Positions 3,151 through 38,595 of a stretch of 39,788 nucleotides of DNA are shown one piece after another. The notes under the pieces are model-generated. The model did no database searches. It was given only the letters and a program-made list of their open reading frames with translations, and had not been told where the DNA came from. Source of the stretch: Sphaeroforma arctica JP610 (lineage: Eukaryota); NCBI RefSeq assembly GCF_001186125.1, contig NW_014039797.1, forward strand, positions 1-39,788, read 5' to 3'. The position numbers and the translations under genes were made by a program. Numbering within the stretch: position 1 is the stretch's first letter; the number at the start of each line of letters is the position of its first letter.

Positions 3151-4618
3151 ACAGTGTGACCCAGACTGAAGGCAGAGGCTCCTCGAGTGGGGGGGGGATT
3201 ACTCTTTTGTCTTTTTTTAATAAAAACAATAAAATATACAGTGACCTTTTATAGTTGATAGTTCACGTCTTCACTTTGAGACATCTACCCTCTTTGGCGT
3301 TCATATGGCCGTGTTCTACTTTCCACTCAAATCGCTTACTGAAGAAGACGTCAGGCGACACATGAATCCCCCCGAGATTGGCGGTTTCCAACCAGATGTC
3401 GTGTGGGGAGATTTCAACTTCAAAGCCCGGAAGTATGGCCACGCATCTACAAATCACGGACTACGTATGAAAACGATTGAGACTACTCTGCGTAAGACGT
3501 GGCACTTGGACTACCTCTATGCTGGCGGCTCATCTGGTACTGAACATGCGTATCATCGACCTACCACCCCCGCCTCCCTCCAAACCTATAAGCTGACGGA
3601 CTACGGTATCTGTGGTGACCACACCTTTGACTCGATCTCCAGATACTTCCCACGAATCAAATCCATCGGCCCCCAACAAATGCCAGCAATGCCGTCGCCT
3701 CCGGACCAACGCCTCCCCTCCCATGGATATAACCGATATCGCCATCGACTGTATCACCTACGCAACAAATCCCGCGCGCGACTATTCCAAGCCGAAATCC
3801 GGGCGCATCAGAACCTACTACGGTCGTATCTCACTTTACATGGACCAGCGGAAGGGCTGCTACGAATCCTCAACCGCATCTGGTGCTATACCACTAACCC
3901 ACAAATCTTTGGAGGGTTATATTGTGACTTAAACAGACCTTGGGTTCAGCGGCTGCCAAACCACTCGTTCCGCCCACGTCTGACCGACCAAAGCAATGCT
4001 CGAATGTTCAAAGATATTGCGTACCAACGACGGTCTCCGCGCCAACCCTGCATACCGGGTACCGATGACACAGGCGTTACCCTCGCTGGCTACTTTGAGG
4101 CCCTATTCAACTCTACAAACCCGTACGTGGTTCCAATGGATACCGAACCCTCTCCTGATGTCCCTTCCACCATACGCCCCGACGATGTAATGGAGGCAAT
4201 ACTACGCTATCCCAATAAGGGACCTGGCCCCGACGGGATCCACATCCTTCTTCTGAAGGCCGCAGTGGAGCGCTCTACCGAACGCCTGACATTAGGACGC
4301 CCCGACGCCAATAGCCCACTGATTAGATTCCTTGCCGAAGCATTCACTCAGCTACTGAAGGCAGATACCTTCCCCGCAGCCCTGAACTGCAGCCTCCTGA
4401 CAGCGCACCCAAAGAAAGCCGATCCAGATATCACCTCCCCCGCCAACTTCCGCCCCATCACGCTTCCGCAAATAGTCAGACGCATCTTTGAAAAGTGCTT
4501 TATTAATCTGATTACGAGCCACCCCGGCTCTGCTACCCATGCTACCCAAGCTGGCTTCAAATCACGGTACTCCTGTCATACCCAAGCACTTGCCGCCATG
4601 GAATCTGAGACACAGTCG

Positions 4619-4800
4619 GAAGAGGAGTGGAACAACGACCGTCTGGACAATACCACAGCATACGACAAGGTTGCTCTCCCGCGCCTGTGGGTACTTCTGC
4701 GCCACGCTCAGAAGAGGAGTGGAACAACGACAGTCTGGACAATACCACGGCATACGACAAGGTTGCTCTCTCGCGCCTGTGGGTACTTCTGCGCCACGCT
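4619..4800. repeat. 90-bp tandem duplication (period 92) inside LINE A RT
   Basis: gaagaggagtggaacaacgac...gccacgct at 4619-4708 and 4711-4800; single copy in LINE B; causes a frameshift. Confidence 0.93.
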
Positions 4801-6401
4801 GGAATGCTCAAAAGCTGGATCAACTGCCTCCTCGTGCTATTTGAGAGGGTCCCTACCGAGTGACATACCGCGGCACGCTCTCGCCTCTATTCCATAGAAC
4901 GAATGGCATCCTACAAAGCTCGATCATTATTTACATGGATTCCTTAGCTGTCACGCTAGCTCGATTTCGGCCCAAGCTCCTCCGCCCTTATTTATTTGTC
5001 GATGACACATGGATCCAAGCCCCTCGATCGGTTTCGCTCCAGCCCTTCTTAGATGACATTGATGCGTGGGGACGCAAATCTGGCCTCGAACAGGGTGTCA
5101 TTAAACCCCGAGTACGATCTACCGACTTGCGACACGCGGCGCCAACCCTCCGTATAAATGGTGAACATATCACGCTGACGCTTGCAGACGCACCTTGGAA
5201 CCCACGTTACCTCCCCCTGAAACTGGCACCCACACATGCCGAACCGAAACACTTCAAATACCTGGGGTTCCCACTCTCTCACGGAGTACCAGGAATCAAC
5301 CTCACTAGACATATGGAATCCCTGGTTGCAGTATTGACCCCGGGTATCGCCTCCATCCGCGCTTATGGCTTCCATGGCTTCAGCTGGCGACACCCCCGCA
5401 ACCGACTGGTGCTGTTGTAAACATTCATCCTATCCACGGCTACATATGGCCTGAACATTGTTGCCTGGGCTCCGCCTATATGGAAGGATACGCTGGGCCC
5501 CCTGTTTGAGCGCTATAACTCAACACGCATCCAAGCAGCAGCCATCATCACGGGCACTAAATACCCTCGGTTTCCCAAACATCAAACAAACTTACTTCAC
5601 TTTTGCGACCTGCTCCCCGCGCGACCATTCGCGGACTACCTCGGAGGTTGCCTGGGAATACAACTCGACTCAATGGCCAGCACAAATCCACTTACCCTCT
5701 GACGCAACCCACCTGGGCCCACGAAAAACCATCACTGCGCTTCCCGTACAGTATCTATGCTCACCTGAAAACTGTACACAAAACCACGGGCGGGCGTACA
5801 CCCGACCATGTAGCCCTCTGCCAACGCTGTGACGACATCAGGAAGAACTCAACAAAACGTTGGTTCAACAAGGAGATCGCGGCAATGGCCCGGCGCCAAT
5901 ACTACTACCAACTGGTTATGAGTAAACCGCCAACCTCAAACCGAGACACAGCCAGACACGACAGCTCCAATCGCTGCTTCGAGTCTACACCAATCCGGCT
6001 CTGTGCTATGATTGTAACGAATACGTACATGTTCACATTGCTTGACTACCGTACCGACGGCTGTCTCTGCCCTGTCTGCCCCGGTAGCCACAAGTTCACT
6101 ACCAGCCACTTTACCTGCATCCAACAACTGATTCGACGCATCCTGGTAGGCCCGAAACTGCCGCCCATTGGCGCTGACCTCCTTCAGCAATTACAGGAGT
6201 GCCACGACTTCCACGGTATCTGGACCCTCCACGAACGCCTTGGATCTTTTCTCCAGCATGTTGAAGAAGCACTGTACCCTCACCCATTCCTGGCACATCA
6301 ACAGATGTTCCCTATACCCCTGCTAATCACGCTGTTGAAGTACTACTTCCAAATATCGGTTCAAACCAAATCATTGCGCTTGTTGGTTCCGACTATGGTA
6401 C

Positions 6402-7929: not shown

Positions 7930-8172
7930 GAGTGACACCGTGAGTTCAGCACAGCAAATAGATTTTTCAATACAATGAGTACCTCTGTGACAAGTATATA
8001 TGTGAGACAACATTGAGTGTAGACCGTGCCCGTTCTCAGTGTATAAGTCTTAACATTACTCGTCCCACTGGGGTGGGTGGCAGATTGTAGTTTACCACAA
8101 GTTTTTAAAGCATTGCTCTTTATTGGTGATGAGGGCCGCCATTAAGTGCTTTAGTTAAAACTTCCCTGCGCG

Positions 8173-8799
8173 TGTAATAGCCTGGCCTCCACATTAGACT
8201 CTATGATATAAACGTACTCTTAAGCAGTACGTATATTATATACGTACTCTTAATAGTACGAAAAACTTAAGTTTCCTAAATGGTTTTTAACGGTTTTATT
8301 AATTAATACCTTTTCCATTTTACATATCAGATATTTGGATGAAGGCCATTAAAAGGCCCGATTAAACTGCTAAACATAAGAGTTGGTCTAGTTCTATTAA
8401 TAGAACTATATTTACTTTCCAACTTTATTTATATCTGAATACTTCGGTAGCGAGATGGTTCAACCGAATATCGGTTTCTAGGGACAATTAACGTTACCTA
8501 GTTGATCCTCCGATCAGCCAACCAGATGTGCCAGTCTGATGAAGGCTAAGTCGGTAATTCTTGATACGTGGCAAGATATTGGTTAAGACAATAACTAAGG
8601 ACATCAAAGAGCTTTTTTCTTTTTCTTTCTTTTTTCTAAAGATAGGATTTTATGAGTCTCTCAGATCCGCCGGCATACCTAACTTTACTAAATGTCTCAT
8701 TTCGTTCATTTACTTTGAAATTTTCACGATATTTAGAATTTACCTACACGTTTATTTACTCTAAGGCGTTAATATCGCCTTAATAGACCGAATCTTACA
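8173..8799 (+). mobile_element. Solo LTR of the Gypsy-1 family
   Basis: TGTAATAG...TCTTACA, collinear with 15065-15834; flanked by 4-bp direct repeat CGCG (8169-8172, 8800-8803). Confidence 0.9.
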
Positions 8800-9079
8800 C
8801 GCGCAAGTGTGATTTCAATGCGATCATTACGACTATGTTCTCTCGTGGACACGACCGGATGAATCCGTACATTGTTTACTTTTACATACAACACACTATT
8901 CAAACTCGTTGCAAATAATAACTAGCTTTGTCGACAAAATTGATTGAACATGTCCCCCGGTAAAAGTTTAATTACAGAGGTTAATAAAACTGTGGATGTA
9001 CTTGTAAAATACTTTCAGACTGGTGAAAGGGTTGTGAGAAGGCTCGTAGCGTATATCCGTCCTGCGCAAGAATAACAAA

Positions 9080-9372
9080 CATTAAGTTGTCGGAATAAAG
9101 AAAAGGTAGTTGTTAAAGTTGACTTCCTAGCCCATAGTGGTTACTTTTGACTAACCAAGCTGACAATATAATATCCATGCATTTACATTAAAGAAAATAC
9201 GTTTGAAAGTCAAAGTGCATAAAGTAAACTAAGTTTAGCCTCAGCCCTCTGTGGCAATAAGCAAAAGATAAGAGAATTTAAGACTGAGGCTATTATCTAT
9301 ATAGCTCTGCTCTAATCACTCACTAGTCTGGTCTGGATTTATTTGATGTCAGCGACTAAGATCACACAGAGT
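9080..9372 (-). repeat. Main part of putative 3' LTR of Gypsy-2 (continues at 18546-18586)
   Basis: 9149-9372 aligns with 22558-22756 (ctatatagct..tctaatcactcact.., agcaaaagat); left boundary approximate. Confidence 0.7.
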
Positions 9373-10622
9373 TACCCCCTTGTCAACTAATCTACCACGC
9401 ACGGACCATCTCTGGTAGGGCATACCAACCAAAACACGATGCAAACCTCGTCTTACCTAACCCGCAAATCCCGGCAAGCGCTAAAGAACCAGCGCGTGCG
9501 AACCCCGGACGACTCCACGTACCAACGGTCTTCCCGACACAATCATCCGACACGATGGTTACCAATACGCAGCCTTAAACTTCCACCACAGACTCTCCTA
9601 CGACAGGTAACGATATAGAAATGGCCGATATCAATAAGGAGAAGAGCCCAGCAGTATTGATTAAGGATGAACAATGTTAGGGCCAATGAGCATGCCGCAC
9701 TTCAACCCACAAGGACTTGACATGGACAACGCAGCACATGCAGATAAGTGTTTGAACGTTATATCGATTTTGAGTTAGATTGATGATATGTGTGTGGTTG
9801 AAACCTGGCATAACATCACATTTCTTAAACATATACGCTCGAACACACACTACCATATTCTACATCATACAACACGGCGTAATATCTTACATTCTTCACA
9901 CTGTAATATTGGCGTCTTTTCCAAACACCACCCATCGAAATTTGAACTTGTACACTCATCGTACGCTGTGTTTTTTGTGTTCCGTATGGTTGTGTTCAAC
10001 CTCCCACTCAAATCACTTACCGAAAAAGACGTCAGGCAATACATAAATCCTCTCCAGATTGGCAATTTCCAACCAGACGTTGTTTGTGTGGGGGATTTCA
10101 ACTTCAAAGCCCGCAAGTATGGCCCCGCATCTACAAATGACGGATCACGTATGAATACAATCGAGACTACCCTGCGTAATACATGGCACTTGGACTACCG
10201 CTATGCTGGCGGCTCAACTGGTACAGAACATACGTATCATCGGCCTGCCACCCCCGCTTCCTTCCTGACCTATAAGCTGATGGACCACGGTATCTGTGAA
10301 GACCACACCTTTGGACTCGATCTCCAGGTACTTCCAATGGAGCAAATTCATCGGCCGCAACAAATGCCACCAATGCCGCCGCCTCCGGACCAACGCCTCC
10401 CCTCTCATGGATATAGCCGATATCGCCATCGACTTTATCACCTACGCAACAAATCCCGCGCACGACTGTTCCAAGCCGAAATCCGGGCGTATCAGAACCT
10501 ACTTCGATCATATCTCACCTTGCACGGTCCAGCGGAAGGGCTGTTACATATCCTCAATCGCATCTGGCGGTATGCCGCAAACCCAAAAAAAAAAAAATTT
10601 CTTCGGAGGATTCTACTACGAC
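9373..10622 (+). mobile_element. LINE copy B, 5' part (APE endonuclease)
   Basis: FNPQGL...VVETWH...VGDFN; 9985-10622 aligns with 3305-3928 of copy A. Confidence 0.85.
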
Positions 10623-10877
10623 ATACCTAAAACCTGCATACAAGCAAGTTAAGAAATGTGCTGCGGAAAGCATGCCCATTCTTGTAAACACTATCTTACA
10701 AAATGCGACAAATGTGAAAAGACAAATGGCTACCACACTAAATCGTGTAACTTCAGACCCGACATTAAGTTGAACTGACGGTACTACCGGGTACAATCGT
10801 CACACAGACAGTACAACGACTCTTTAGATGAGCGTGTAATATTCCCTGTATATTGCAATGGAAATAAAATCCTTGCG

Positions 10878-13800
10878 TTGATTGATCCTGGTTCTGAAAT
10901 TTCATGTATATCCTATCGCTTTACATTAATGAAAGATATCGAAAGGAGAACACAAACAACTCACCTCATTTTAGCTGATGAGAAAACCTCCAAGTGTGAA
11001 ACTATGGCAACAGATGTGAAGGTCTCGTTAGCCGATGATAGGACTATCACTACCCAAGCTGTGATAGTTAAGATGTCACAGAAGTACGGCATTATAGTCG
11101 GAATGAGCGATTTACTCACTCTAGGTTTAACCGTAACTGGTTTACCAAATAATATAGATCCATTAAAAGATCAGTCAGACGATAACTGTCTGAAACCATA
11201 TAAGCCCCCGTCAGACACAATCAAGGCATTAATACCTGACTTTGAGGACAAAATCATGGATCTGATTCTAGTAAATAAGAAGATAAAAATCAAGGATTGG
11301 GCAAAATTCCGTTTTAACGACGGATATGTCAGCCTTGACTCAACCAAGGTGGACTTTACACAGTTGAAGTGCCCCTCAAGGGACTATGTATCCTGGAGAC
11401 ACGAGGCTGTGGTAAAAGAACAAGTTGAGAAATGGTTAGCAGATGGAGTGATAGAAATTAACTATCAACAGACGCCAGTTAACTTGGCATTGCTAGCTGT
11501 AGACCAACATAGCTCTGACGGATCTTTTAAGAAAGTCAGAGTATGTTTAGATGAGTCCGATAAACAAATTATTGCCGACTCATAGCTTTCACCTACCTCG
11601 TATTAACGAGCTACTGCAAAGGATAGAAGGTGCTACAGTATTTACAACTATAGACCTTACACAAGAATAACATCAAATGCAGATATATGAACCACATCGC
11701 AAATACTTTAGTTTACGTGGAAAGGTAAACAATACAGGTTTAGAGGAGTACCTTTTGGGTTGCACTCTATACCAGCATTCTTCCAACAAGCAATGGATGA
11801 AATGTTTGTAGACATGCCTAACGTGCAAGTCTACATAGATGACATAGTCATCTTTTCGAAAACTAAGGGCGAACACGCCGCATTAGTCAGATGAGTCCTT
11901 AAGAGACTCAACGAGCAAAACTTCAAGATTAACGAGAAGAAATGCCACTTCGCAATGAGCGAGATACAGCTCTTAGGCTATCGTATATCTGGGAAAGGTA
12001 TTAAGATCGATCCCGGAAAGGTAGAACACCTGTTAGATTGGCGAACACCAACTACAGGACGAGATGTGAACAGCATATGTGGGTTTGTAAACTTCTTTTC
12101 AGATGGAGTACCACACTTGGCTGATTACCTTAAATCTTTTGGACACTTAAGATGTCATAAAGGTAAACTAGGCGACTTGTGGACAAAAGAGTGTGATGAT
12201 GCGTTTAAAGCACTCAAACACGCCGTCCAACAAGCAACTATAGTACAAGTACAAGGGCCTTTTGATGCCGTGCCGTTTGAAACAGCAACGGACACTTCCG
12301 ACCTAGCCTTAAGAGGAGTATTATATCAGGTTATAGATAACAAACCTAGATATATACAATTATTTAGTCGAGCGATGAATGCTTCACACTTGAATTATCC
12401 TACTGTTAGACAAGTGCTATTAGCCATAGTGGCAGCTCTAACACACTTCTGAGATTACTTATATGGAACAGCATTTACGCTGATGTGTGATCAGAAATCT
12501 CTTCAATATATGAAAGAGATGAAACCCGACTCACAACTACTGAGTCACTGGCATGATACAATATCAAAGTTTTATTTTGATATAAAACAACTGCCAGGAA
12601 TACATAACCATTTACCGGATATGTTATCACGCTTCGTACCAGACTTTAATAAGTCAGTACGTGAGCTCTTAGCTACCGATTGGAAATGCAATCCACGGTG
12701 GTTTGATTTGGCTCAAAAGATATATCGGCCACATATCATAGATATGTTTGCTGCACATCATAATGCACAACTATCGAATTACAGGACTTTAAATCATCCT
12801 TTGGGAGACGCCTTTCAATTAGACCTCTCCAAACATAATGCGTGGGCTAATCCACCATGGCAGTTAATTGCCCAGCTATTAAATTACGTTCATATACATA
12901 AAGCTACCATTACACTGTGTTGCCACTTACGGAGTTTAGATCCGTGGCTCAATAAATTGATCAGCATGATACAATGCGAGCCAATATATTTAAATAGGGA
13001 AGTAGATACTTTCCTATATCAGGGTACCCGAGCCGTCCAGAAGACGCCCTGGAGACATACTATAATATGTCGTATAGATCCCATTGAAACAACCAAATGG
13101 ACCCCTTCTGAGACCTTTCTTAATAAGGTCAAAGAATCAGAGATTACACTCTCTACTAATTTGAATGTTAAGCAGTTCAATTACAATACAGTACGTGAAG
13201 TTTGTACACAAGAGATACAATCTACTATTGACACTACAGTTAAGAAGCGTCAATCTCTAGCTCGGACTTTATTTAATAATATAAAGTCTAAGTCCGAAAT
13301 CTTTCAACTCCTATTTTTAAAGGGATTAATGAAAGATAACCTGAAGTACATGCACATATAATGCGACTATTAAATAATTCGAGTGAAGCAAATGCGTATG
13401 AACGTACTAAAGATGCGCACGCAGTAGAGGGTCAGGAGTCTGAAAACACTACAGACTTAGAGCATACGCAAGTGGATTCTCAACACCCTACCTTTATTCT
13501 GGAAGAGCAGAATGATGAAAACATTATCGCTTGGCTGACGCAAAATCATAAGTTGAAGCACCAGAACGTAGTAGAAGCACTTAAAGATGCCAAGCGAAAT
13601 GGGTTAGCGCACCCTAAGCTGGCGACTTTAGTGGATAAATTATATCAGTTATGTACAAACTGTGATCTCAATCAGATCAGGCGCTATGGATTCGCACCAC
13701 TTAAGAGTGTGACCAAAGATTTTCCATGGCGCAGGGTCATCATTGATCTGGTTGACCTGCCTACGTCCGAGCACACAGGCGACCGTTACGTATGTCACTT

Positions 13801-14932
13801 CTTTGATGTGGCGTCACGGTTTAACTTGCTCTATTCATTAAAGGATAAGAATACGCAGACCGTGGCAGAGTTATGTCGCCAACTCTTTGCTGACCACGGG
13901 TGGCCAGGTATTATGTGCTCTGATAACGGTAGTGAGTTCTGCGATGACGTAATGGAATCGCTAGTACTTGTATCAGGTGTGCCATATAAACCGCAAACGC
14001 AAGGCACGAATGAAACGCGCCATAGAAGACTTAAGTTCTTCCTGCGTACTGCATTAACGGATGATGCAGATGATTGGCCGTACCACATTAAGTGGGTACA
14101 AACACAGATGAACGAGTGTGCTGATCCGGTTACAGGAACTACACCCGCTCACTATTTTCATGGTAGATATAGTGAGTTACAAATCTCCTTTAACAAGGAC
14201 GAACCTGATCACCATGAGTTACCATGGTTAGAGAAGGTATAACGTATTTATAACGTTGTATATCTTTGCTTGCGAGAAATACGCAATACAGCCTTATCAA
14301 AAAGGCAAAAGCGTTGGAAAACTACCAAGAAGATATCAGAGTATCAGGTCGGTGACAGAGTTAACATCCGTCAACGTAATTCCGATGCTACTGTATTAAC
14401 ATCTAAATGGATAGGTACATATATAATCTCTGTAGCAGACACTAAAAGTGGAACGTACGAGGTAAATAACCACGATGGTTCTAGTGCGTTTAATATAGGC
14501 ACAAGTCGTATTTCGACTACAAAGATTATACTCGCAAGAAGACCTGATTCTAATGTCCCTCTTGAACGCTCCGAATTTAAAGATATAATAAGGAGAACGG
14601 ATAAAGGAGGATATACATACTATCGTACTCGCTTTATAGATGTTACAATCGCTGAGTTGATTTCAGATGCTTTCGATAATCAAGACTATTTAAAATCATT
14701 TAATCGAAAATGGCGTAAACGCCTGCATAAGTCACAAGCTGAAGAAGATAGCATGTTTCCATCGTCTGAAGGCAAGGAAGTTAAAACTTACCCGCCTACA
14801 GCATTTATCCCGAGCTTTAATGCTCATCCTTCATATGTGCTTAAGACACTGAAGCGTAAGAAACGTCCAGTCGACCACCACGGACCTACTGGACCTAAGC
14901 CCAAAACTCACAGGGTAACCGAGAACGCTTAA
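10878..14932 (+). pseudogene. pol: Gypsy pol polyprotein with stops/frameshifts: PR-RT-RNaseH-MTase-IN-chromo-like
   Basis: LIDPGSEISCI (PR); KVRVCLD, PFG, YIDD at 11832, LLGY (RT); TDTSD, NYPTV, DQKSL, PDMLSR (RH); H..H..CTNC, IDLVD, SDNGSEF, GTNE (IN); KWIGTY. Confidence 0.93.
12678..13082 (+). other. Dam-like (DIRS-type) N6-adenine DNA methyltransferase domain in frame with RNase H
   Basis: DWKCNPRWF, IDMFAAHHNAQL (SAM-binding motif I), DAF, WANPPW (catalytic motif IV, 12849-12860), ITL..DPWLNKL. Confidence 0.88.
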
Positions 14933-15064: not shown

Positions 15065-15834
15065 TGTAATAGCCGGGCCTCCACATTAGACTCTATGTTA
15101 TAAATGTACTCTTAAGCAGTACGTAAAATATAAATGTACTCTTAATAGTACAAGGAACTTAAGATTCCTAAATAGTTTTCAACGGTTTTATTAATTAATA
15201 CCTTTTCCATTTTATATATCAGATGTTTGATGAAGGCTATTAAAAAGCCCGATTAAAATGCCAAAGATAGGATTTGGAATAGTTTTATTAATAGAACTAT
15301 ATTTTATTACAAATCTATTTATATCTGAATACTTCGGTAGCGAGATGGCTCAACCGAAAATAGGTTTCTAGGGACTATTAATGTTACCTAGTTGATCCTC
15401 CGTTCAACCAACCAGATGTGCCAGTCTGATGATGGCAAGTCGGTAATTCTTAATAAGTGGAAAGTTATTGATTAAGATACTAACAAAAGACATCAAGAGT
15501 ATTTTCTTATTCTTTTTACTATTTTTCTTCTTCTAAAGATAGGATTTTATGAGTCTCTCGGGTTCGCCCCAACGAAACATACCATAGTTTCTAATAGAGC
15601 GACAACGAAACACTAAATAAAATCCCTTCGGCGAAAACAGTACTGAGAGGATTATATATAGGCAATGTCTCAGCCTCACAATCCCTCAGAGTATTGCTGT
15701 TTTCACGAAGCATACCTAACTTTACCAAAAGACTCATTTCGTTTATTCAGTTCAAATTCCACGATACTTAGACTTAACCTAAGCGTTTAATTACTTTAAG
15801 GCGTTAGTATCGCCTTGATAGACCGAATCTTACA
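15065..15834 (+). repeat. 3' LTR of Gypsy-1 (770 bp)
   Basis: TG...CA termini; homologous to 8173-8799 plus ~140 bp extra. Confidence 0.92.
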
Positions 15835-18545
15835 AATGTTCAAAGGTATTGCGTACCAACGACGATCTCCGCGCCAACCCTGTATACCGGGTGCCGATAA
15901 CACAGGCGCCACCCTCACTGGTTACTCTGAGGACCTATTCAATTTCACAAACCCGTACGTGGTTCCACCGGATAGCGGACCTTCGCCAGATGTAACGCCA
16001 GATACAACTCGCCATACGCCCCGACGATGTAATGAAGGTTATACTGCGCTATCACAATAAGGGATCCACATCCACCTCCTAAATGCGAAGCCGATAGCCC
16101 ACTGATTAAACTTCTTGCCGAATCATTCACTGAGCTACTGAAGGCTGGTACCTTCCCTGCAGCCCTGAACTGCACTCTCCTGACAATGCACCTGAAGAAA
16201 AAAATGATGCAGATATTACCTCCCCCGCCGACTTCCGTCGCAAATAGTCAGACGCATCTTTGAGAAGTGCTTCCTCAAGCTGATTACAAGCCACCCCGGC
16301 TCTGCTACTCATGCTACTCAAGCTGGCTTCAAATCACGATACTCATGCCATGCCTAAGCACTCGCCGCCATGGAATCTGAGACACAGTCGGAAGAGGAGT
16401 GGAACGACGACTGTCTGGACAATACCACGGCATACGACAAGGTTGCTCTCCCGCGCCTGTGGGTACTTCTGCGCCACGCTGGAATGCTCAAAAACTGGAT
16501 CAACTGCCTCCTCGTACTATTTGAGAGGGTCCCTACCGAGTGACATACCGCGGCACGCTCTCGCCTCTATTCCATAGAACGAATGGCATCCTACAAGGCT
16601 CAATCTTTGTCTCCCAGCTCTTTATTATCTACTTGGATTCCTTAGCTGTCACGCTAGCACAATTCCGGTCCAAGCTCCTCCGCTCTCATTTATTTGTCGA
16701 CAATACATGGATCCAAGCCCCACGCCTCAATCGGTTCCGCTCCAGCCCTTCTTAGACGACATTGATGCTTGGGGAAGCAAATCTGGCCTCGAACAGGGTG
16801 TCATCAAATCCCGAGTACGATCTACTGACTTGCGACACGCGGCGCCAACCCTCCGTATAAATGGTGAGCATATCACGCCGCCGAAAACTCGACGCTACCT
16901 CCCCCTGAAGATGGCACCCACACATGCTATGTCTAAACTCTTCAAATATCTGGGGTTCCCACTCTTTCACGGAATACCAGGGATTAACCTCGCCAGACAT
17001 ATGGAATCCCTGGTTGCAGTATTGACCCCGGGTATCGCCTCCATCCGCGCTTATGGCTTCCATGGCTTCAGCTGGCGACACCCCCGCAACCGACTGGTGC
17101 TGTTGTAAACATTCATCCTATCCATGGCTACATATGGCCTGAACATTGTTGCCTGGGCTCCGCCTATATGGAAGGATGCGCTGGGCCCCCTGTTTGAGCG
17201 CTATAACTCAACACGCATCCAAGCAGCAGCCATCATCACGGGCACTAAATACCCTAGCTTTCCCAAACATCAAACAAACTTACTCTACTTATGTGGCCTG
17301 CTTCCCAAGCGACCATTCGCGGACTACCTCGGAGGTTGCCTGGGAATACAACTCAACTCAATGGTCAGCACAAACCCACTCACCCCTCTGACGCAACCTA
17401 CCTGGGTCCACGACAAACCATCACTGCGCTTCCCGTACAGTATTTATGCCCACCTGAAAACTGTATACAAACTTAAGGGCGGGCGTACACTCCGAACATG
17501 TAGCCCTCCGCCGACGCTGTGACGACATTAGGAAGAACTCAACGAAACGCCGGTCCAAAAAAAGAGATCGCGGCAATGGCTCGGCGCCAATACTGCTACC
17601 AACTGGTCATGGACAAACCGCCAACCTCAAATCGGGACAAAGCCAGACACGACAGCTTCAACCGCTACTTCGATCCTACACTAATCCGGCTCTGTGCTAT
17701 GATTGTAACGAATACATACATGTTCACCCTGCTCGACTACCGCACCGACGGCTGCCTCTGCCCTGTCTGCCCCGGTGGCCACAAATTCACCACCAGCCAC
17801 TTTGCCTGCATCCAACAATTGATCCGGCGCATCCTGGTAGTCCCGAAACTCGCCCCTCCCCCTCCCCCACCCCCCCCTCCCCCCTGACATCTTCCAGCAA
17901 CTACAGGAGCGCCACAATTTCCACGGTACCTGGACCCTCCACGAACACCTTGGATCCTTTCTCCAGCATATAGAACTAACCCCGTACCCACACCCGCTCT
18001 AACACATCAACGGATGTTCCCCATACCCCGGTTAATCACGCTGTTGAATTACTACTTCCAAATTTCGGCCCAATTTAAGTCATCGCGCCTGTTAGTTTCG
18101 CCTATGATACTTCCGATCCAGGCTAACCAGCACATTCCGAGTGCATTCGTGGTCTGGTACGGCATTGTTTCACCCCCAACCTTGCTCCTCAACCGAATTA
18201 TGACGGATAACCTGGTCCTACTTGGCATTTTGTACTCTGCACTAACCCATCCCATGGTACTACACGGTGCAGATCCGATCCGTACCACAGAAGTGGGTAC
18301 GTTACTTAGTAGGTCAGCAAGCGAATACGTGGCACACTCGATGGTGTCAGTTTTTTGTCAGCACCGGCCTGAATTGACCCAGCGCGTATCCTCCATAGTC
18401 GACTCACTTGGCCCAAGCTTCAAACGGGAATTTATTGACCACTTCTTCCCATCGATCTTCCCCGAATCACTACAACGGCCATGATAGCCATACCATATGT
18501 ACATACATTGTAGCTATCTCCTTTGAAATAAATAATATTATCCCT
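15835..18545 (+). mobile_element. LINE copy B, 3' part (RT, zinc finger, C-terminal domain), degenerate
   Basis: Begins aatgttcaaag, equivalent to 4003 of copy A; collinear to the common 3' end TATTATCCCT. Confidence 0.92.
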
Positions 18546-21500
18546 ATTCCATTACATGCATGATATTTCATCTCAATCTCGTTTCACGACTTTATCAGTT
18601 ACTCGGTTACTCTTGGACGTTTGGGTTTACATGGACATTTCTTAGTTCCTTTTGGGAATAAGTTTATTTCGTGATTTTTGAATCTTGGAATCTACATCAG
18701 AACATTTTTTGTAGGTAAGATAGCATCAGCATCAGTCTTATTTTTGTGTAGGTGTTTGCGAAACTTCTTGTTAGGCTTTCAATATGTCTGGATCGATCAA
18801 ATGCTGATGGTGGTAGGTCGTATTGTGCCATCTGCAAACTTTGTTGTGTAATAAATCATGTCATCATGTTTGTACTTCTCAAGAACTTTTTTAAACTCGT
18901 AAAACATAAGATGTATTGCAGTAGCTTCACGTATGCGACGAATGATGATTTCTATAATCGGAATACGACGTGATCCGATTTTTAGAGTTTTAGAATCGTC
19001 AACATTGGTAACTTTGTACGTTCTGCTTTTTTTACCGGGCACTGAAATCTTGAATGGTCAATGTACTTAGCCGTAAGCACAATTGTGTCGGAATTACGAG
19101 CCATGATGTTGGCTATGTCGCCTACCTCAAACTCTGGGGGGGGTTTTTAAAATCATTCCATCAGTTTCTGTCTCTTCTTGAACGCAATGTACATCTCTCT
19201 CAAATAAGGACAGACTACGTCTCTGGTTCGACTCATCTTCTCTAACCATGCTAGGACATGATTTTCTTGAGAATCCATGATTTTCTTGAGAATAAAGAAC
19301 TTGCAACTCACTATAGCGGTCCCTGAAATAGCGAGCAGGTACTATACCAGTATCAGATGTATCCGATGTCTCGTTCATTTTTGTCTGTACCCAATTGATT
19401 GAGTAAAGCCACATGTAAGCATTGTCTCGCAATGCTCCACTCACGAACTTCTTCATCTTTCTGTGTCACACCTCATTCGCACCTTGTATCTGAAGTTTGT
19501 AAGGTACACCCATTTTATGGCATGATCCTGCAACGAGTAACAGTGTCACCATGACGTCACCGGAAAACTCACTACCGTTGTCAGAACATACTATGGCTGG
19601 CCAACCGAAATCTACGAAACACTTGTAAATGCACACAGCCACAATTTCTTTCAGACGACATAAAATGTTATACCTTGAAGCAACATCAAACACGTGACAG
19701 ACATGCTTCTCTTTCGTGTGTTCGGACGTGGGTATCTTAACCAAATCAATGATTACCCGGCGCCACGGCTTGTCGTCAGATACGCTTCGTAATGGAGCGT
19801 ATCTGTAGCGCTTGATTCGGGTAGCTTTGCAGTCGTTATATTCAAAATACACCTGAGATGTATATTGCTTGAGGTTCGGGTGTACAATTGCGTGCATTTT
19901 GCAATCTTTCTCAGTTCTAACCGTATTTATATGTTAAAAACAGGGTTTGCTATTTCAGAACGACTTTCTCGGAAGAATGCGATACATAAAAATCAGGAGG
20001 GAGTGAATTCCACAGCGTCAACACCTGGACTTGAAAACGTATCACCATCTGGATGTTCCAGAGTCCGGTATTGCGGCAATTGCGTATTATGATGAGCCAC
20101 AATCATATCTATGATATGTGGATCATATATGTTGTCTGCGATCTTGAACCACCTAGGATTGTCCATTCAATCCGTAGATAGTAACTCCCGAGCCATCTTG
20201 TTGAAGTCCGGTACAAAACAAGCGTGACAGCATATTCGGTAAGTGATAGTGTATACCAGGGATATGTGTTATGCCGAATGTGAATTTTGCAATCGTAACG
20301 TGTCACCAATTGCGAGTTGGGTTTCATGTCATTTAGGTGTTGCAATGACTTCTGATCGCATGGTACAATAAAGTGTGTACCATACAAGTAATCCTTGAAA
20401 TGAGTGAGTGCATTTACAATAACTACTAGCTCTTATTGCACTGTTGGGTAATTGATCTGTGATGAGTTCATAGCCCTGCTAAAAAAATGCACATATATCG
20501 GACTCCCATCAATCATTTGATACAAAACGCCGCCAAGTGCCATGTCGGACGCATCATTACTGGTGCTTGTTGGACCACTGTTTGAGCTGCTTAACGGTGT
20601 CATCATCTTCTTTGATCCATGAAGCTCTTAATTTATCCTTATGACATCTCAAGTGCCCAAAGGGTTTAAGGTAACTTGCTTAATGAGGAACTCCATCCGA
20701 CATAAAGATGACGAAGCCGCACATGCTGTTCACGTCCTTGCCAGTAGTAGGTGTTTTCCAATCTAATTAATATTTTACCTTTCCTGGAGCAATCATAATC
20801 CCCGCGCCTGATACCCGGTAACCCAACAGCTGTATCTCGTTAGCGCCAAATTGATATTTCTTGCTGTTGATTTTAAAATTGTATTTGTTTAGTCTGGCTA
20901 AGACCTCACGTACAACTTTGTCATGTTCCTCTTTGGTCTTGTTATATAATGATAACGTCTATGTATACTTGCACATTATCCATGTTCTGAAACAAATCCT
21001 GCATGATCCGTCGGAAGAATGCTGGCAACATCTGTAGACGAAATGGTGCTCCATCACTCCATCTTCCAACCAGGCCTTGGCCTGTTCTCTGACTACCTGT
21101 TCGTGACACCATGCTATATAGTTGCGCGTCAGACATTTCAACTCCGAAAATTAATCCTTTAACTTCTCTGTAAATTAGGGTGCCATCTCTTTCACAGTCA
21201 TAAAAGGCCAATATACGGACTTCAGTAGGTTGTCATCTTACTAATCCTTTTGTGTGTCTATGTTAGTAGGTAAACATGTGATAGATATACCTATTGACAA
21301 CATGTCTCCCATACCTGCTATCAAGTCGTAGTCTGGTGAGATGTTATAGAATACTGCTTTTGTGACTATGGTGCGCTGACTGATGAGCGTAAACCTCGGA
21401 TCTACAGCCGTGGCACAACATACTATCTCACTCTCGTCAGCTAACTTTAACATACGAGGTTCTGATTTTCGAGTTAGGGCGAGTCCAAACGACTAAAGCC

Positions 21501-22325
21501 ATTTAACATTAAAGTATAATATTAAAGTTGAAAAAAGGGCCTACGTGCCTTGAAAGTTGCACTTTCATTTTTACTGGTGGGCCGCCCATAGGTGCGTTTG
21601 TTTTTTATACGTACATTTCTCTAGAAATTTTACTCAGGACTATTAGTGCGTAAATGAAGTCACACTCCCTTTAACGGAAAAATAAAGTGTACTTAAAACT
21701 GTATATTACCATGCAGTCATATCTCATCCCCGTCGTCATCATTCTTTGTCTCCGCTGCCAGCACGTTCGTCGCGAGGCCGTTGTCGTACGAGACCGTTTA
21801 GCTGTAGGTGGCGGATATTCAGAGTCGGAATCTTCCTGATCTTCCTGCTCCTCTTTTGTTTTTGGTGAGGGACTCGCATCCGAATCGTCAACAGGGGTCT
21901 TCTTCCGATTTCTCCACGGTGAAACGCTTCTTCCTTTTAAAATCCTGCGGAAACTACGCGACAATTGGCAAAGTTTCTATGGTATCCGTCCGAATCCAAC
22001 GGCTCGTCAGTCATGGAAGAACCCTCCGGTTCTGTTTCTAACTCCGATTCCGTCCCTGATCGGGTTCGACTCCATAATGTAGGACCTACTGGTCCACGCT
22101 GCGAAGTCTTCTCCTGCGTCTCTTTCACGCCCTGACCTTCGGTTGTTTCAGTGGGCGCTGATTTCTTTTATTTCTTGGCGACTGTAGCTCTGCTACTTTT
22201 TGCCTCCTTTTCTTTTGTACCTGCAACCTTTTTTCCAGCTGCCATCTCCTGCATCGACTTCACCTCGCTTGGTGAGAATATCGATCTTTTAATGTTTTAA
22301 CTTCGGCGTCTTTCTCGCTGTCAGG

Positions 22326-23838: not shown

Positions 23839-25634
23839 TCAGCGATGGCAAAGCCCAGCTGGCGGTCGATTTCCGACATCGTTAGCTGATGCTGTGAAAC
23901 CGGAGTATGTTGTGCTACGCTGGTCTGTGTGGTGTACGAACGTAGGGTCATCATTCTCGTCGGTCATATCTTGTGCCTGCATCCAGTTAGGACGGAACAC
24001 ATGCCGCTGTAACTCCACCGGATTGAGCGGTGTCTGATTGAGGCGATAAAGCTGTATACATGGTGCGTTCCAGGAGTAGCGCATTTGTGGGCACCTCTGA
24101 ACTAACCCATGTGATGTGCTTTTGTCAGCATCGGTCTCAGCTTGCATAAGTGTCTGGGTTGGAGTTGGCGGCTCAACGAGTTCAGAAGTAGTTGTACCGG
24201 CATGATAGGTTGAAATAATGTATTACTAGCTCGGGGTACAACCGAGCGCCACTCGCGGTGCAAAAAGGTGTCTGCTGTGTGGGGGGTAACGAGAAGGGTG
24301 TACTGTATAAGTGTAATTAGCTTAGTGAACCATGGCGCATTAGATCTGAAAGGAACACATACCACCACCACCACCACCACAGACGTATTGGGTAAATCGA
24401 GTAGTCATGTATGCAAGAACGGGTCAATGTCTCTCCAAGGAGAGTTCATGTAGCAATGATTGAAGAGAATGTTTATGTTTCATGCATCTTGGCCGTATGC
24501 TCTCGTGCCGTCTTTCGTATAGTATGTCACTAGCAAAGGGTCTTCATGGCTAGCGAAAAGTTCAATACCAAAGGTCTTCACGGCTGCTAGATGGGATCCG
24601 CCCAGTGGAAATTCATAGACCAGCTGTTGACGTCTGACGTATCATCTGGCACTACCCAATCTGTAAATTGTGCCGCAGGCATCCGTGTAGGTCCAGGTGT
24701 TATAGCGACACCTACAAAGGGCACCGTGTCCTTCTGAATATGAAGTTGTGCTTGCATCGGAAAAGAGACTGAAGTATCCACAACATTTTATCTGTGATAT
24801 CCAGACAATCACCGAAAATCGGTAGTGGTCCTGGCATATAGCACATATCAATACGAGCTTCATTAATATCTCAATACTGCGCATCCATCGTTGGTGCTTG
24901 ACAGAACGAGAGTGCAAGTAAGGGGCTGGGTTGGTGACAACGTTTTCCAACGGCTTGTGGTCCGAGAGAATAGCCGTATGTTGGATGAACCTATGGCAAA
25001 AGGATGTTGACTAAACGAATGGCCAGCATCTCGCGCGAAGTCTCACTGTAATTGAGTTTGATATGCTTCAACTTCTTGGAGAAATGTATCATGGGGTAAA
25101 GGTAAGAAAAACTACCGATAGTGATGCCTGCATCGCGAGGTCGTTCCGGAAGGCGTGACATATCTGGTGCCGGGGATTCCGATCGAATACGATTACGGTC
25201 GGGTGCACGTATCATACTGTCAATGAAAAGTTATCCCGAATAGCATACGTCGGGGTAGTAGTTGGTGAGGTTTGAGCCGTTACCTGGTTGGTAATCAGCA
25301 GTGTCTCAAAGGCCAGAACTCGATCCAAAACCTGTTGAGTCTGGGGACTGCAGTTTGGTCGGTTGACAGAGGAGCATCTTCGAACTGGCGATCAGAAAGA
25401 GGCAATGTGTGCAGTGGTTTTAATATTTCCACATCAACAGTCAACTTGCGATCGCCCTCGACACGGCCAGTCAATACGGTGGCAGAAATGTGATCCTGGT
25501 ATTCTAATGCTTGTGCATGTGGGCGCTGGACGGACTGTTTGTGCAGCACACATAAAGGGTATAGCCGCCGCCTTTGGAAACGTGGCCAGGTCGCTGAGCC
25601 GCGGCTGTTGTGAGGTATCATCTGACTCAACCAC
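23839..25634 (-). mobile_element. Third, divergent retroelement relic with RNase H and methylase remnants
   Basis: HFSKKL..LNYSETSREMLAI (RH); then WSMNFHW, GIELFASHE, QDA*, YMNSPW, CVPFRSNAPWFTKL..ADTFL; boundaries uncertain. Confidence 0.72.
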
Positions 25635-33096: not shown

Positions 33097-34218
33097 TCAA
33101 TCGTCGACGCTGGGAGTTATCGCTTCTTCTTTACCCACCGAAGGATAACGTCCAACACCCACGAATGCACTATCGTTCATTTCCACTATATCGCCATCCA
33201 CTCGAGGGTTTCCAGCTGAATTTGTGGATATTTCGTCATCGTCATGGTAGTACATCACACACTGCGCATCTCGCAACACGGTGCACTGCCTCGTTGAACA
33301 CGTTATGACAGTGCCATCAAGATCAACCATACACTGGTTGCACCCATCAAACCATCGTCTACAATTTTCTGGGATCGCTATTTCCGCGCCTTCCAAACAC
33401 GCGGCGGCGTGATACTCTTCTCGAACGCACGTGATATTGGTTTGCTTCTCCATACCTTGATCTTCCAAACATAGGAAAGTATTACATCCGTCCGAGTACT
33501 GGTTACAACCCTCGGGACACTTTTGAACGAAACAATCGCAAGTGCTACAACCTGTGTCGTCGACCATTAAAGACGTATCGCACGCTGGGCAGTCTAGTTC
33601 GGGGCAGTCCGGCTTGGGCTTACACGCGCACGCATTGCATCCATTATCCGTTTGCTGATATCCGTATAAGCAGGATATAGTACATAGATAGATGGGACAA
33701 TTCACAAGGTCATTGTCGTCCGGCGTAATGTATAAAGGAGTCGAAGGTTCGTTGTCTGCGTAGTCATCGATACAGAATGGATCTGTTGTTTCATAAGGCG
33801 TACATTTCTTCAAAGTACATCCAGCGAAGTCCCCGCATATGCAAAAGTTGCAACCGTCAAAGTACATTTCACAATCGTCGGGGCACACGCCTTCTACTGT
33901 CATCAGATCGCCTTTGCTCGTATCCACTGAATCCAGGTACAATTCGCACGCACATGTCTCACAACCCTTCTCGTCGCGAAGATATACCGCACATATACGA
34001 TCTTCTGGCTCGCATTTCGAGTGGGCGTACTCGCAAAGACATTCCGGTTGGCCTGTCTCTACACATTCCGTCGTGTCGCAGATGGGGTTGAATCCGTCGC
34101 GATCGCAGACACATGTATAACAGCCGTCCGAATAGACCTCGCAGTTCACAGGACAGAACTGTTCCTGCATGGTGCAATTTAGTGCCGAAATTTGAGTCTG
34201 AAGCATGTACAAAGACAT
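33097..34218 (-). CDS. Cys-rich acidic repeat protein with DGCN repeats and antistasin-like modules
   Basis: Four CxxY/W(F/S)DGC(N/Y)xC-type units; CPIYLCTISCLYGYQQTDNGCNACAC antistasin pattern; no clear in-frame signal peptide. Confidence 0.85.
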   Translation of the reverse strand: MSLYMLQTQISALNCTMQEQFCPVNCEVYSDGCYTCVCDRDGFNPICDTTECVETGQPECLCEYAHSKCEPEDRICAVYLRDEKGCETCACELYLDSVDTSKGDLMTVEGVCPDDCEMYFDGCNFCICGDFAGCTLKKCTPYETTDPFCIDDYADNEPSTPLYITPDDNDLVNCPIYLCTISCLYGYQQTDNGCNACACKPKPDCPELDCPACDTSLMVDDTGCSTCDCFVQKCPEGCNQYSDGCNTFLCLEDQGMEKQTNITCVREEYHAAACLEGAEIAIPENCRRWFDGCNQCMVDLDGTVITCSTRQCTVLRDAQCVMYYHDDDEISTNSAGNPRVDGDIVEMNDSAFVGVGRYPSVGKEEAITPSVDD

Positions 34219-35234
34219 AGGAGAACCTGGTGATGTTATGCGGCAACGAGGTACTCTCTTCAGACGAATGCTCTACGAAAAACAATTTGCTATCGATGTA
34301 CGAAGATAAGCAGTAGTCACAAAGAAATAAAAAAGGTATCGTGATTAAGACACCAGCCTAAAGAACATGGTGTAACTCAGCGAATATTGGAGGTATGTGC
34401 ATATAGTAAGACTTCAATATTGAATCATCAGGCACTTTGTTCAAGGCATGAGCTTAAGCGAAAGGTTTTGAGAGCAGACGCAAATACAGCGCTTCATGTT
34501 TTCTATTGAAGAACACAAATTAACTCGGACGAGCGCATGCTAAGAACTACATGGTTGGATCCAGGAGTTCAATCAATGTATACCAAGGCAAGACACGCTG
34601 TTCCATGCATATGAGTTTCAGACGAATACACTTATGGTTTCTATAAAGATATTTCAACATTCGCAATAACAGAGAAAGGTATCAAAAATGCACATATACG
34701 TAAAAAATATATGAATGCCTCAGATCAAGCAAATAAAACATCCAATGATCGATTCTCATCTTGAATAGAACGATGTAGATATGCAAACGTTTAGAACTCG
34801 AAATACGAACCCAACACAACGATATACGAGTGATTGCGTGTTTGGTAGACATACAGAAAAATCTAGACATAGGAGTACATCATTGAAGCTATGGGTGTGT
34901 TGAGACGTTACGAGAAACATCACAAAAATTATTTCATGGATAAACACCGAATGCTATATAATATCAAACATTCACGCAAACAAAAACGATGCTCATTCAT
35001 AAAAAAAAAACAAAAAACTAAGTGCATACAAATACGGAAATGCCCGACAGATATAGATCATATTCGAGTGTACAATTTTTCTTCTTCTCTCGAATATATC
35101 CACAAATTAAACGAGTACAAACATGAACTTTGAAGACCTATAAGACGAACACACTCTATATGATATATATAGATATTTATATAGATATACAGACATACAG
35201 ACAGATAGACCGACCTACAGACCTACATATATAT

Positions 35235-37674: not shown

Positions 37675-38451
37675 TCATACCGCCAAATTGTTGTCAGGGA
37701 TACATTCGCATTGCGCACATCCTCGTAAATCGGTGGTAAAACCAGCAGTACATTCCAGCTCGCACTGCGACGAAGGTTCAGTCGCGGAGCAGGTGCATAG
37801 GGGATCAACTGTCTGTTCTTCATCACACACGGCAGTTGAACAGTCGAACAAATCGCCCTCAAAGGTACATCCACAGGTATTGCACCCGTCGAAGTATTCC
37901 AGACACCCTGGTGGGCAGTGGTCTTTGCACATTTCGTTGTAATCACTGTCGTTCCAGTCCAAGAACATCTGCCTGTCTGCTTCATCCACATCTGTCCACA
38001 GAATGTGATAGTAGCACATATTGATAGACAATGTGCCATTCTCCTCTTTCCCTGCAAGTACATACGTACCCCCGTCGATGAAGTCATCGGGGCCGAGGTC
38101 ACATGAGTTGACATTATTCGAGTGGCTCGAATTACTCAGAGGGATAATAAGCACCTCATTAACTGCACCTACTTCGATGTCAGCTATAGTTTTGGCCAAA
38201 AGTTGTAGTTCCTCTACTTGTACGTCGACAGTCACCACCGCGAGCCAGTCTGAGAAACACAGCTGTTCTTTAATGGTAACGTAGGGACAACTGCATGCAC
38301 TGCATGCTTGCGTATTGAATGTGACTATGGCTACAAACAATAGCAAACTAGCACTAACGATCCTGGATGGACCAGTAGTAGCGAGGTTCCGTCCGCCAAG
38401 CATCATGACTATGTGCCCGCGTTGTGAACTCGGCTTCTGTGATATCAACAT
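37675..38451 (-). CDS. Secreted TIMP/NTR-domain protein with C-terminal DGCN and antistasin-like modules
   Basis: Hydrophobic segment SLLLFVAIVTF, then A|CSCPYVTIKEQLCFSD, SC..GGTYVLAG..LSINMC..W; CPPGCLEYFDGCNTCGC; CELECTAGFTTDLRGCAQCEC. Start may be the ATG at 38406. Confidence 0.88.
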   Translation of the reverse strand: MLISQKPSSQRGHIVMMLGGRNLATTGPSRIVSASLLLFVAIVTFNTQACSACSCPYVTIKEQLCFSDWLAVVTVDVQVEELQLLAKTIADIEVGAVNEVLIIPLSNSSHSNNVNSCDLGPDDFIDGGTYVLAGKEENGTLSINMCYYHILWTDVDEADRQMFLDWNDSDYNEMCKDHCPPGCLEYFDGCNTCGCTFEGDLFDCSTAVCDEEQTVDPLCTCSATEPSSQCELECTAGFTTDLRGCAQCECIPDNNLAV

Positions 38452-38595
38452 ACAAATTGCATATTAAATTTATGGCCTTCCTCTGCGGATTTTAACACAA
38501 AAAGTTCGAATTTGTTACATATTTGGCTATTTTTCTTCTATATTGGAGTGTTACTGACCTGTGTACGGCATTATTAAAATTGTGTAAATATGCTT

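What the first reader, a model, noticed from the sequence alone, without database searches (positions are those of the whole stretch)
12483..14242. Ty3/Gypsy LTR retrotransposon with a DNA adenine methyltransferase between RNase H and DDE integrase
Seen: one stop-free frame runs from the RNase H end (DQKSL..PDMLSR) into a ~135-aa domain with IDMFAAHHN, DAF and WANPPW. A linker and an HHCC + D,D,E integrase follow, in an element with aspartic protease and a TG..CA LTR. Known: RT-RH-Dam-like methylase is the hallmark of DIRS tyrosine-recombinase elements, which lack protease and DDE integrase; canonical Gypsy pol has no such domain; NPPW/Y/F is the amino-MTase catalytic motif. Inference: a Gypsy lineage that methylates its own cDNA or target DNA (6mA or 4mC), perhaps acquired from DIRS. 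In several unicellular eukaryotes 6mA marks active chromatin, so self-marking could help escape silencing. I cannot confirm this is unreported.
Basis: partly seen in the sequence, partly recalled or inferred. Interest (0 to 1): 0.9.

Follow-up and report, generated by a model that had tools for sequence, protein, structure and literature searches.

The report
Gypsy retrotransposon carrying adenine methyltransferase domain
A decayed copy of an abundant Gypsy-type jumping gene does carry an adenine-methyltransferase-like domain between its RNase H and its integrase, which likely helps mark its new DNA copies with methyl-adenine, but a May 2026 preprint already described this kind of element, so it is a good example and not a first.

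Summary
A stop-free frame (12453-13358) runs from the RNase H end into a Dam-like domain (Pfam PF05869; DMFA and NPPW motifs; AlphaFold pLDDT 94, methyltransferase fold). An HHCC/D,D,E integrase and a TG..CA LTR follow. This copy is dead: it has stops and frame breaks, and its 5' LTR and most of gag are lost. Four intact single-ORF relatives (PR-RT-RH-Dam-IN) and contigs bridging the RNase H-Dam junction rule out a chimera. The domain is as conserved as RT and integrase (64-71% versus 27-31% for linkers). RT and Dam trees both place it in one clade with Abeoforma whisleri proteins. That paper reports 6mA enrichment on such insertions but no activity in E. coli. Three small additions: the integrase ends in a degenerate chromodomain-like fold, though the preprint says this lineage lacks one; the closest solved structure is the RNA cap methyltransferase PCIF1, so the substrate is open; and two Copia-type proteins with Dam turned up. 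Already known; low to moderate interest.

The parts
8173..8799 (+). Solo LTR of the same family (627 bp, TGTAA..TTACA, flanked by CGCG on both sides); not this copy's 5' LTR
   Evidence: 88% identity to the 3' LTR, flanks; varied flanks behind 8799-8800; unique sequence 8773-9546
9985..10625 (+). Left part of the LINE into which the element is inserted
   Evidence: 86% to LINE copy at 3304-3905; junction
10650..10760 (+). Probable remnant of the gag C-terminus (Cys/His-rich, zinc-knuckle-like); inferred
   Evidence: translation; not tested by profile
10845..11108 (+). Aspartic protease
   Evidence: Asp_protease_2 E 0.0033, gag-asp_proteas E 0.0034 (below gathering); intact relative P0001 E 1e-6
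11397..12110 (+). Reverse transcriptase (YIDD), broken by stops and frame breaks
   Evidence: (RVT_1 E 4.8e-9)
12180..12632 (+). Ty3/Gypsy-type RNase H, one internal stop
   Evidence: RT_RNaseH_2 E 5.5e-18
12675..13088 (+). Dam-like (PF05869) amino-methyltransferase domain with DMFA and NPPW motifs; fused about 14 residues after RNase H
13089..13545 (+). Poorly conserved linker, with the frame break near 13340
   Evidence: 27-31% identity to intact relatives
13547..14239 (+). Integrase: HHCC zinc-binding domain and D,D,E core
   Evidence: (rve E 7.8e-8), alignment
14336..14548 (+). SH3-like integrase C-terminal domain (predicted)
   Evidence: model residues 32-102 match SH3/Tudor/KOW barrels and foamy virus and RSV integrase, Z about 6
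14570..14740 (+). Degenerate chromodomain-like fold at the end of integrase (predicted; aromatic cage not kept)
   Evidence: clade profile vs chromodomain profile 97.4%, E 1.5e-11; window family alone 1.3%; SUV39H1 chromodomain Z 7.2, rmsd 2.1, 57 residues
15047..15064 (+). G-rich polypurine-tract-like stretch before the 3' LTR
   Evidence: sequence
15065..15834 (+). 3' LTR (TGTAA..TTACA) with a 140-bp insert
   Evidence: (varied flanks before 15065)
15835..18110 (+). Right part of the interrupted LINE
   Evidence: 78-87% to LINE copy at 4003-6401
18700..21510 (-). Second, more decayed copy of a related DAM-LTR family (PR-RT-RH, Dam cut short at 20047-20172, integrase)
   Evidence: (64% DNA identity)

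Best explanation
This is a dead, 5'-truncated copy of a repeated Ty3/Gypsy LTR retrotransposon whose Pol carries a Dam-like methyltransferase domain between RNase H and integrase, and in working copies that domain likely puts N6-methyladenine on the element's new DNA during reverse transcription. Shown: the architecture, the methyltransferase fold, the conserved motifs, purifying selection, and membership of one RT-and-Dam clade with Abeoforma whisleri elements. Inferred: Pol is packaged and cut by its protease. The domain sits about 14 residues after RNase H and about 150 variable residues before the integrase, so it probably stays on RT-RNase H, as in DIRS, and meets nascent cDNA or the RNA:DNA hybrid. 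Inferred, following the preprint: the marked insertion is then maintained by host AMT1 and stays transcribable. Odds: identity as an ichthyosporean-lineage DAM-LTR about 0.95; the cDNA-marking mechanism about 0.5.
For: Four intact single-ORF pols PR-RT-RH-Dam-IN among 1030 candidates. Dam identity to the two closest is 71% and 64%, against RT/RNase H 61-72%, integrase core 54-65% and full-length linker matches 27-31%. 19 of 30 listed differences between this copy and others in the domain are synonymous, against 26% expected (p 1.5e-5). NPPW in 16 of 18 clade members. AF2 pLDDT 94.5; best viral matches are phage DNA N6-adenine methyltransferases (E 7e-9, TM 0.73-0.80). RT tree: 13-row all-Dam clade, SH-aLRT 99, inside the LTR group and apart from Dam proteins without integrase; the Dam tree recovers the same clade, 96/88; it includes A. 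whisleri proteins. The preprint reports more 6mA and more expression on DAM-LTR than on other LTR insertions in A. whisleri and S. arctica.
Against: No activity has been shown: DAM domains from DIRS, DAM-LTRs and an adintovirus did not raise 6mA in E. coli. Iyer et al. call DIRS1 domains likely inactive and PCIF1-derived. The close intact relative P0001 has CPPW, and 6 of 9 other LTR-type Dam domains depart from NPPW. The best solved-structure match is the RNA enzyme PCIF1 (Z 10.7), above T4 Dam (Z 7.7). The 6mA enrichment is a correlation and could follow from insertion site or transcription. The synonymous count uses only the rows the tool showed (35 rows hidden) and mixes decay of this copy with family divergence.
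Confidence: 0.55

Rival explanations
1. The domain keeps the fold but works without catalysis, for example as a nucleic-acid- or SAM-binding module that helps RT, packaging or targeting; the 6mA on insertions comes from host AMT1 alone.
Against: NPP(W/F) in 17 of 18 clade members and NPP(F/W/Y) in 33 of 41 DIRS-like proteins; D-x-F-A and N-P-P are among the most conserved columns of 166 rows.
Confidence: 0.25
2. The domain is an RNA methyltransferase like PCIF1: it would methylate the element's own RNA (cap-adjacent or internal adenosine) or the primer inside the particle, not DNA.
For: PCIF1/CAPAM is the top solved match by Foldseek (E 4.5e-5, TM 0.70) and VIA-align (Z 10.7, rmsd 2.9, 132 residues), followed by KsgA/Erm RNA enzymes; Iyer et al. 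place DIRS domains in the PCIF1 clade; a DNA-only E. coli read-out would miss it.
Against: Among predicted viral structures, phage DNA N6-adenine methyltransferases score better (E 7e-9) than viral PCIF1-like proteins (E 7e-6); the 144-residue model covers only PCIF1's catalytic core (492-652); a shared fold shows no substrate; 6mA DNA is enriched on these insertions.
Confidence: 0.15
3. The domain makes N4-methylcytosine rather than N6-methyladenine.
For: The NPP(Y/F/W) motif is shared by both kinds of amino-methyltransferase (established knowledge, recalled).
Against: Named nearest structures are adenine enzymes; the preprint's data concern 6mA.
Confidence: 0.04
4. Assembly chimera, or a DIRS fragment nested by chance in a Gypsy copy.
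For: The assembly has N gaps and nested repeats.
Against: Intact single-ORF relatives from several sources; contigs from runs X1, X10 and X14 bridge the RNase H-Dam junction; a second copy in the window has the same junction; RT and Dam trees agree.
Confidence: 0.01

Closest known systems
Ichthyosporean DAM-LTR lineage (Fernandez-Moreno et al., bioRxiv 10.64898/2026.05.21.726589; Pirum gemmata, Abeoforma whisleri, Sphaeroforma arctica)
   Same: Ty3/Gypsy RT, DAM domain in Pol, NPP pocket; RT and Dam both group with A. whisleri proteins; same proposed mechanism.
   Different: The preprint says the lineage lacks chromodomains; here the clade has a divergent chromodomain-like end on integrase. 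Whether this exact family is in their set could not be checked (supplement closed).
DIRS tyrosine-recombinase retrotransposons (RT-RH-MT pol; PMC3783388)
   Same: PF05869 domain directly after RNase H.
   Different: This element has an aspartic protease, a DDE integrase, direct TG..CA LTRs and a Gypsy-type RT and RNase H; DIRS lack protease and DDE integrase.
PCIF1/CAPAM cap-specific adenosine methyltransferase (PDB 6irx, 6irw)
   Same: Closest solved fold of the domain; same clade according to Iyer et al..
   Different: 12-14% identity; only the catalytic core is shared; cellular RNA enzyme, not mobile.
Phage DNA N6-adenine methyltransferases of family PF05869
   Same: Best predicted-structure matches.
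   Different: Stand-alone phage proteins, 13-19% identity.
KnitGypsy-Dnmt3 (PMC5890265) and EpiLTRs (preprint)
   Same: LTR elements with a DNA methyltransferase in Pol.
   Different: Those carry C5-cytosine methyltransferases; none was detected here.

Membership tests
Ty3/Gypsy LTR retrotransposon | Pol order PR-RT-RH-IN with DDE integrase | tested here: met
Ty3/Gypsy LTR retrotransposon | RT groups with Gypsy elements | tested here: met
   inside the 55-row LTR group (SH-aLRT 99), rooted on 20 Dam proteins without integrase; no named reference elements were in the tree
Ty3/Gypsy LTR retrotransposon | Direct LTRs with TG..CA ends and short target duplication | tested here: met
   3' LTR plus a solo LTR of the family with a 4-bp duplication; this copy's own 5' LTR is lost
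Ty3/Gypsy LTR retrotransposon | gag ORF and tRNA primer-binding site | tested here: inconclusive
   deleted in this copy; no full element fetched
DAM-LTR, ichthyosporean lineage | PF05869 DAM domain in an LTR-type Pol | tested here: met
DAM-LTR, ichthyosporean lineage | DAM and RT group with ichthyosporean elements | tested here: met
   clade includes A. whisleri P0005, P0006, P0007; the hosts of the other rows are unnamed
DAM-LTR, ichthyosporean lineage | No chromodomain (as stated in the preprint) | tested here: inconclusive
   No Pfam Chromo hit for the window piece, but the clade, including A. whisleri P0007, has a divergent chromodomain-like region; this refines the description rather than excluding membership
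DAM-LTR, ichthyosporean lineage | Host is an ichthyosporean encoding AMT1 | not testable with these tools
   no genome held; inferred from nearest named relatives only
DAM-LTR, ichthyosporean lineage | Insertions enriched for 6mA | not testable with these tools
   reported in the preprint; no modification data here
DIRS | Tyrosine recombinase, no protease or DDE integrase | tested here: not met
   protease and DDE integrase present
DIRS | RT-RH-MT order | tested here: met
Amino (N6A/N4C) methyltransferase | Rossmann-like methyltransferase fold | tested here: met
Amino (N6A/N4C) methyltransferase | NPP(Y/F/W) catalytic motif | tested here: met
Amino (N6A/N4C) methyltransferase | Methyl transfer to DNA adenine | not testable with these tools
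   negative in E. coli for related domains
Chromovirus-type integrase | Chromodomain at the integrase C-terminus | tested here: inconclusive
   clade profile 97.4%; model matches chromodomains at Z 5.4-7.2, under the tool's Z 8 caution line; window family alone 1.3%; cage residues not kept

The most novel reading that the evidence does not exclude
The Dam-like domain is an active PCIF1-like enzyme whose true substrate is the element's RNA or the RNA:DNA hybrid inside the particle. That would explain the failed E. coli assay. The lineage would then be a chromovirus-derived element combining a methyl writer with a repurposed chromodomain, one of several captures that also reach Ty1/Copia.
Probability: 0.15. 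Interest if true: 0.7.

Novelty: already known. Interest (0 to 1): 0.3.

Why it matters
If the domain is active, a retrotransposon writes its host's 'active chromatin' mark onto its own copies, and the long-open question of what the DIRS/LTR Dam domain does becomes testable. That idea and this lineage are already in a 2026 preprint, so this window adds an example and not a discovery. Useful extras: intact family proteins (P0001 with CPPW, P0002 with NPPW) form a natural pair for assays; the PCIF1 likeness says RNA and hybrid substrates should be tried; a divergent chromodomain corrects the published description; Copia-type carriers would widen it.

Tried and rejected
No whole genome is held, so there was no genome-wide copy census, no target-site survey and no AMT1 check. 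The near-length protein search found nothing (0 of 327 candidates); relatives appeared only among longer proteins. Sequence searches of the PDB found no significant methyltransferase: PCIF1 at E 0.92-1.2, nothing with a smaller profile. The ESM Atlas was unreachable, so most relatives have no taxon. The metagenome scan gave 19 loci of 176 pattern matches, none a complete element with LTRs. No RNA holder was listed; X14 and X20 are only guessed RNA, so nothing is said on expression. Summed contig depth is not a copy number and was not used as one. ApT content is not raised across pol or the LTRs (0.9-1.0; Dam domain 1.4): uninformative. The Dam tree leaves the donor unresolved; no one-clade test was run (bootstrap had not settled). 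Foldseek on the integrase C-terminus gave only Tudor-like hits, none at E 0.001 or better. My 26 'no Pfam Chromo' control pols were not clean: 5 scored strongly and 4 weakly against the chromodomain profile, which shows that Pfam misses such domains. No complex prediction was run. Rejected: the upstream LTR as this copy's 5' LTR; chimera; DIRS membership.

Full report
Observation. The frame 12453-13358 (+) is open for 302 codons. It starts in the RNase H C-terminus and runs into a domain with IDMFAAHHN, DAF and WANPPW. Pfam gives Dam PF05869 at E 9.1e-5, below its gathering score; a profile of relatives gives 1.8e-46. Protease, RT, RNase H and an rve integrase with HHCC and D,D,E lie in Gypsy order. 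The integrase is in another frame (break near 13340), and the protease frame has 7 stops up to 13361, so this copy is dead.

Surroundings. The 3' LTR is 15065-15834 (TGTAA..TTACA), preceded by a G-rich tract. The LTR at 8173-8799 is 88% identical but has CGCG on both sides, so it is best read as a solo LTR. The element interrupts a LINE (9985-10625 and 15835-18110, compared with the copy at 3304-6401); about 70 bp of the LINE, the 5' LTR and most of gag are missing. A related decayed copy lies at about 18700-21510 (-), with the same RNase H-Dam junction, and a third, distant Dam remnant at 24249-24575 (-). In four public runs the family is highly repeated (48,011 contigs laid in X1).

Not a chimera. 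Four intact single-ORF pols with PR-RT-RH-Dam-IN were found among 1030 longer candidates. Contigs from X1, X10 and X14 bridge the RNase H-Dam junction. An exhaustive search with the domain found 402 proteins at E 0.001 or better, of which 150 were listed. Among the 284 proteins then held, 184 had an RT match; 26 of these had Dam plus integrase (19 after dropping 7 cluster-mates) and 45 had Dam without a detected integrase.

Selection. Identity to the two closest intact relatives is 71% and 64% for Dam, 61-72% for RT core and RNase H pieces, 54-65% for the integrase core and 27-31% for full-length linker matches (one 24-residue linker match reaches 54%). Of 30 listed differences between this copy and other copies within the domain, 19 are synonymous against 26% expected (p 1.5e-5); 35 rows were not shown by the tool, so the figure is rough. 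NPPW stands in 16 of 18 clade members, NPPF in 1 and CPPW in 1 (P0001). This copy has private substitutions at several otherwise conserved columns, as expected after decay.

Fold. AlphaFold2 with 77 sequences gives pLDDT 94.5. The best solved match is PCIF1/CAPAM, the mRNA cap adenosine methyltransferase (Foldseek E 4.5e-5, TM 0.70; VIA-align Z 10.7, rmsd 2.9 over 132 residues), ahead of KsgA/Erm (Z about 8) and T4 Dam (Z 7.7). Among predicted viral structures, phage DNA N6-adenine methyltransferases are best (E 7e-9), then viral PCIF1-like proteins (E 7e-6). The fold fits an amino-methyltransferase but does not name the substrate.

Trees. The RT tree had 75 rows: 19 Dam+IN, 20 of 41 DIRS-like, 31 of 107 Dam-less Gypsy, 4 others and the window's RT read with X at breaks. 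The window lies in a 13-row clade in which every row has Dam (SH-aLRT 99), inside the LTR group. The Dam tree (76 rows, 145 columns, bootstrap not fully settled) recovers the same clade at 96/88. So one capture was followed by joint inheritance. The clade holds three Abeoforma whisleri proteins, the only rows with a named host. The donor is unresolved. 'DIRS-like' here means RT-RH-Dam without integrase; the tyrosine recombinase was not checked.

Integrase end. The clade's C-terminal profile matches a chromodomain profile built from 62 other elements (97.4%, E 1.5e-11); 8 of 13 clade proteins also score on their own at E 0.03 or better (Z=1000), but the window, P0001 and P0002 do not. The model of the window's own C-terminus (pLDDT 76) has an SH3-like barrel and a chromodomain-like fold (SUV39H1 Z 7.2, rmsd 2.1, 57 residues; tied with others and under Z 8). 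The cage residues are not kept in the alignment. I read it as a degenerate chromodomain.

What is in print. bioRxiv 10.64898/2026.05.21.726589 (whole main text read; supplements closed) describes DAM-LTRs in five lineages, one of them ichthyosporean (P. gemmata, A. whisleri, S. arctica). It infers capture from DIRS, finds more 6mA and expression on DAM-LTR insertions, proposes marking of RNA-DNA intermediates followed by AMT1 upkeep, and reports no activity in E. coli. PMC4738411 (passages) puts DIRS domains in the PCIF1 clade and calls them likely inactive. PMC3783388 (passages) defines DIRS. PMC5890265 (passages) covers DNMT-carrying elements. PMC12695648 (passages) shows 6mA on expressed genes in ichthyosporeans. 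Searches. The preprint's main text has no 'copia', and searches listed no paper on Dam in Copia; its supplements may say more.

Mechanism. Most likely, Pol is packaged and cut; Dam stays on RT-RNase H (short spacer before it, long variable linker after it) and methylates adenine on nascent cDNA or hybrid, so that new insertions enter the host's 6mA-marked, transcribable state. The anatomy, fold and conservation are shown; catalysis, substrate and benefit are inferred (about 0.5). Rivals: binding only (0.25), RNA methylation (0.15), 4mC (0.04), chimera (0.01).

Verdict. Real, well supported, and already described as a type and probably as a lineage. Interest 0.3.

Noticed in passing
proteins P0122 (2098 aa) and P0123 (522 aa): Ty1/Copia-type pols (RVT_2) with a Dam domain at two different positions: between the gag zinc knuckle and protease in P0122, and just before RT in P0123. 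The preprint's main text does not mention Copia. Each is a single-member cluster on one contig; LTRs not checked.
   Followed up: partly
proteins P0021 and P0046: Long pols with EEP endonuclease, Dam, RT, RNase H and integrase zinc domain (protease detected in P0046), on a very long RT branch; P0021's cluster has 5 members. May correspond to the preprint's odd Euglena-like or virus-like elements; not resolved.
   Followed up: partly
proteins P0014, P0023, P0028, P0128, P0175, P0176, P0182, P0194: Dam-carrying LTR pols, most with a chromodomain, scattered among Dam-less chromodomain elements (one named from Rhizopus delemar) in the wider RT group next to this clade; hosts unnamed. Could be further captures or losses.
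   Followed up: partly
window 24249-24575 (-): Third Dam-like remnant (E 1e-14), 26-30% to any relative, with an RNase-H-like stretch about 400 bp upstream; no integrase detected.
   Followed up: partly
window 8169-8172 and 8800-8803: 4-bp duplication CGCG around the solo LTR, inside a CG run; one site only, so no target preference can be claimed.
   Followed up: no
window 3245-6401, 9985-10625, 15835-18110 (+): Two copies of a GC-rich LINE (endonuclease-like GDFN, RT, C-terminal Cys/His stretch), 78-87% identical.
   Followed up: partly
window 33097-34272 (-) and 37675-38463 (-): Cys-rich ORFs with antistasin-like repeats; the second begins with a TIMP-like Cys pattern (resemblance recalled, not tested).
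   Followed up: no
window 8213-8260 and 8389-8408: Short palindromic stretches inside the LTR.
   Followed up: no
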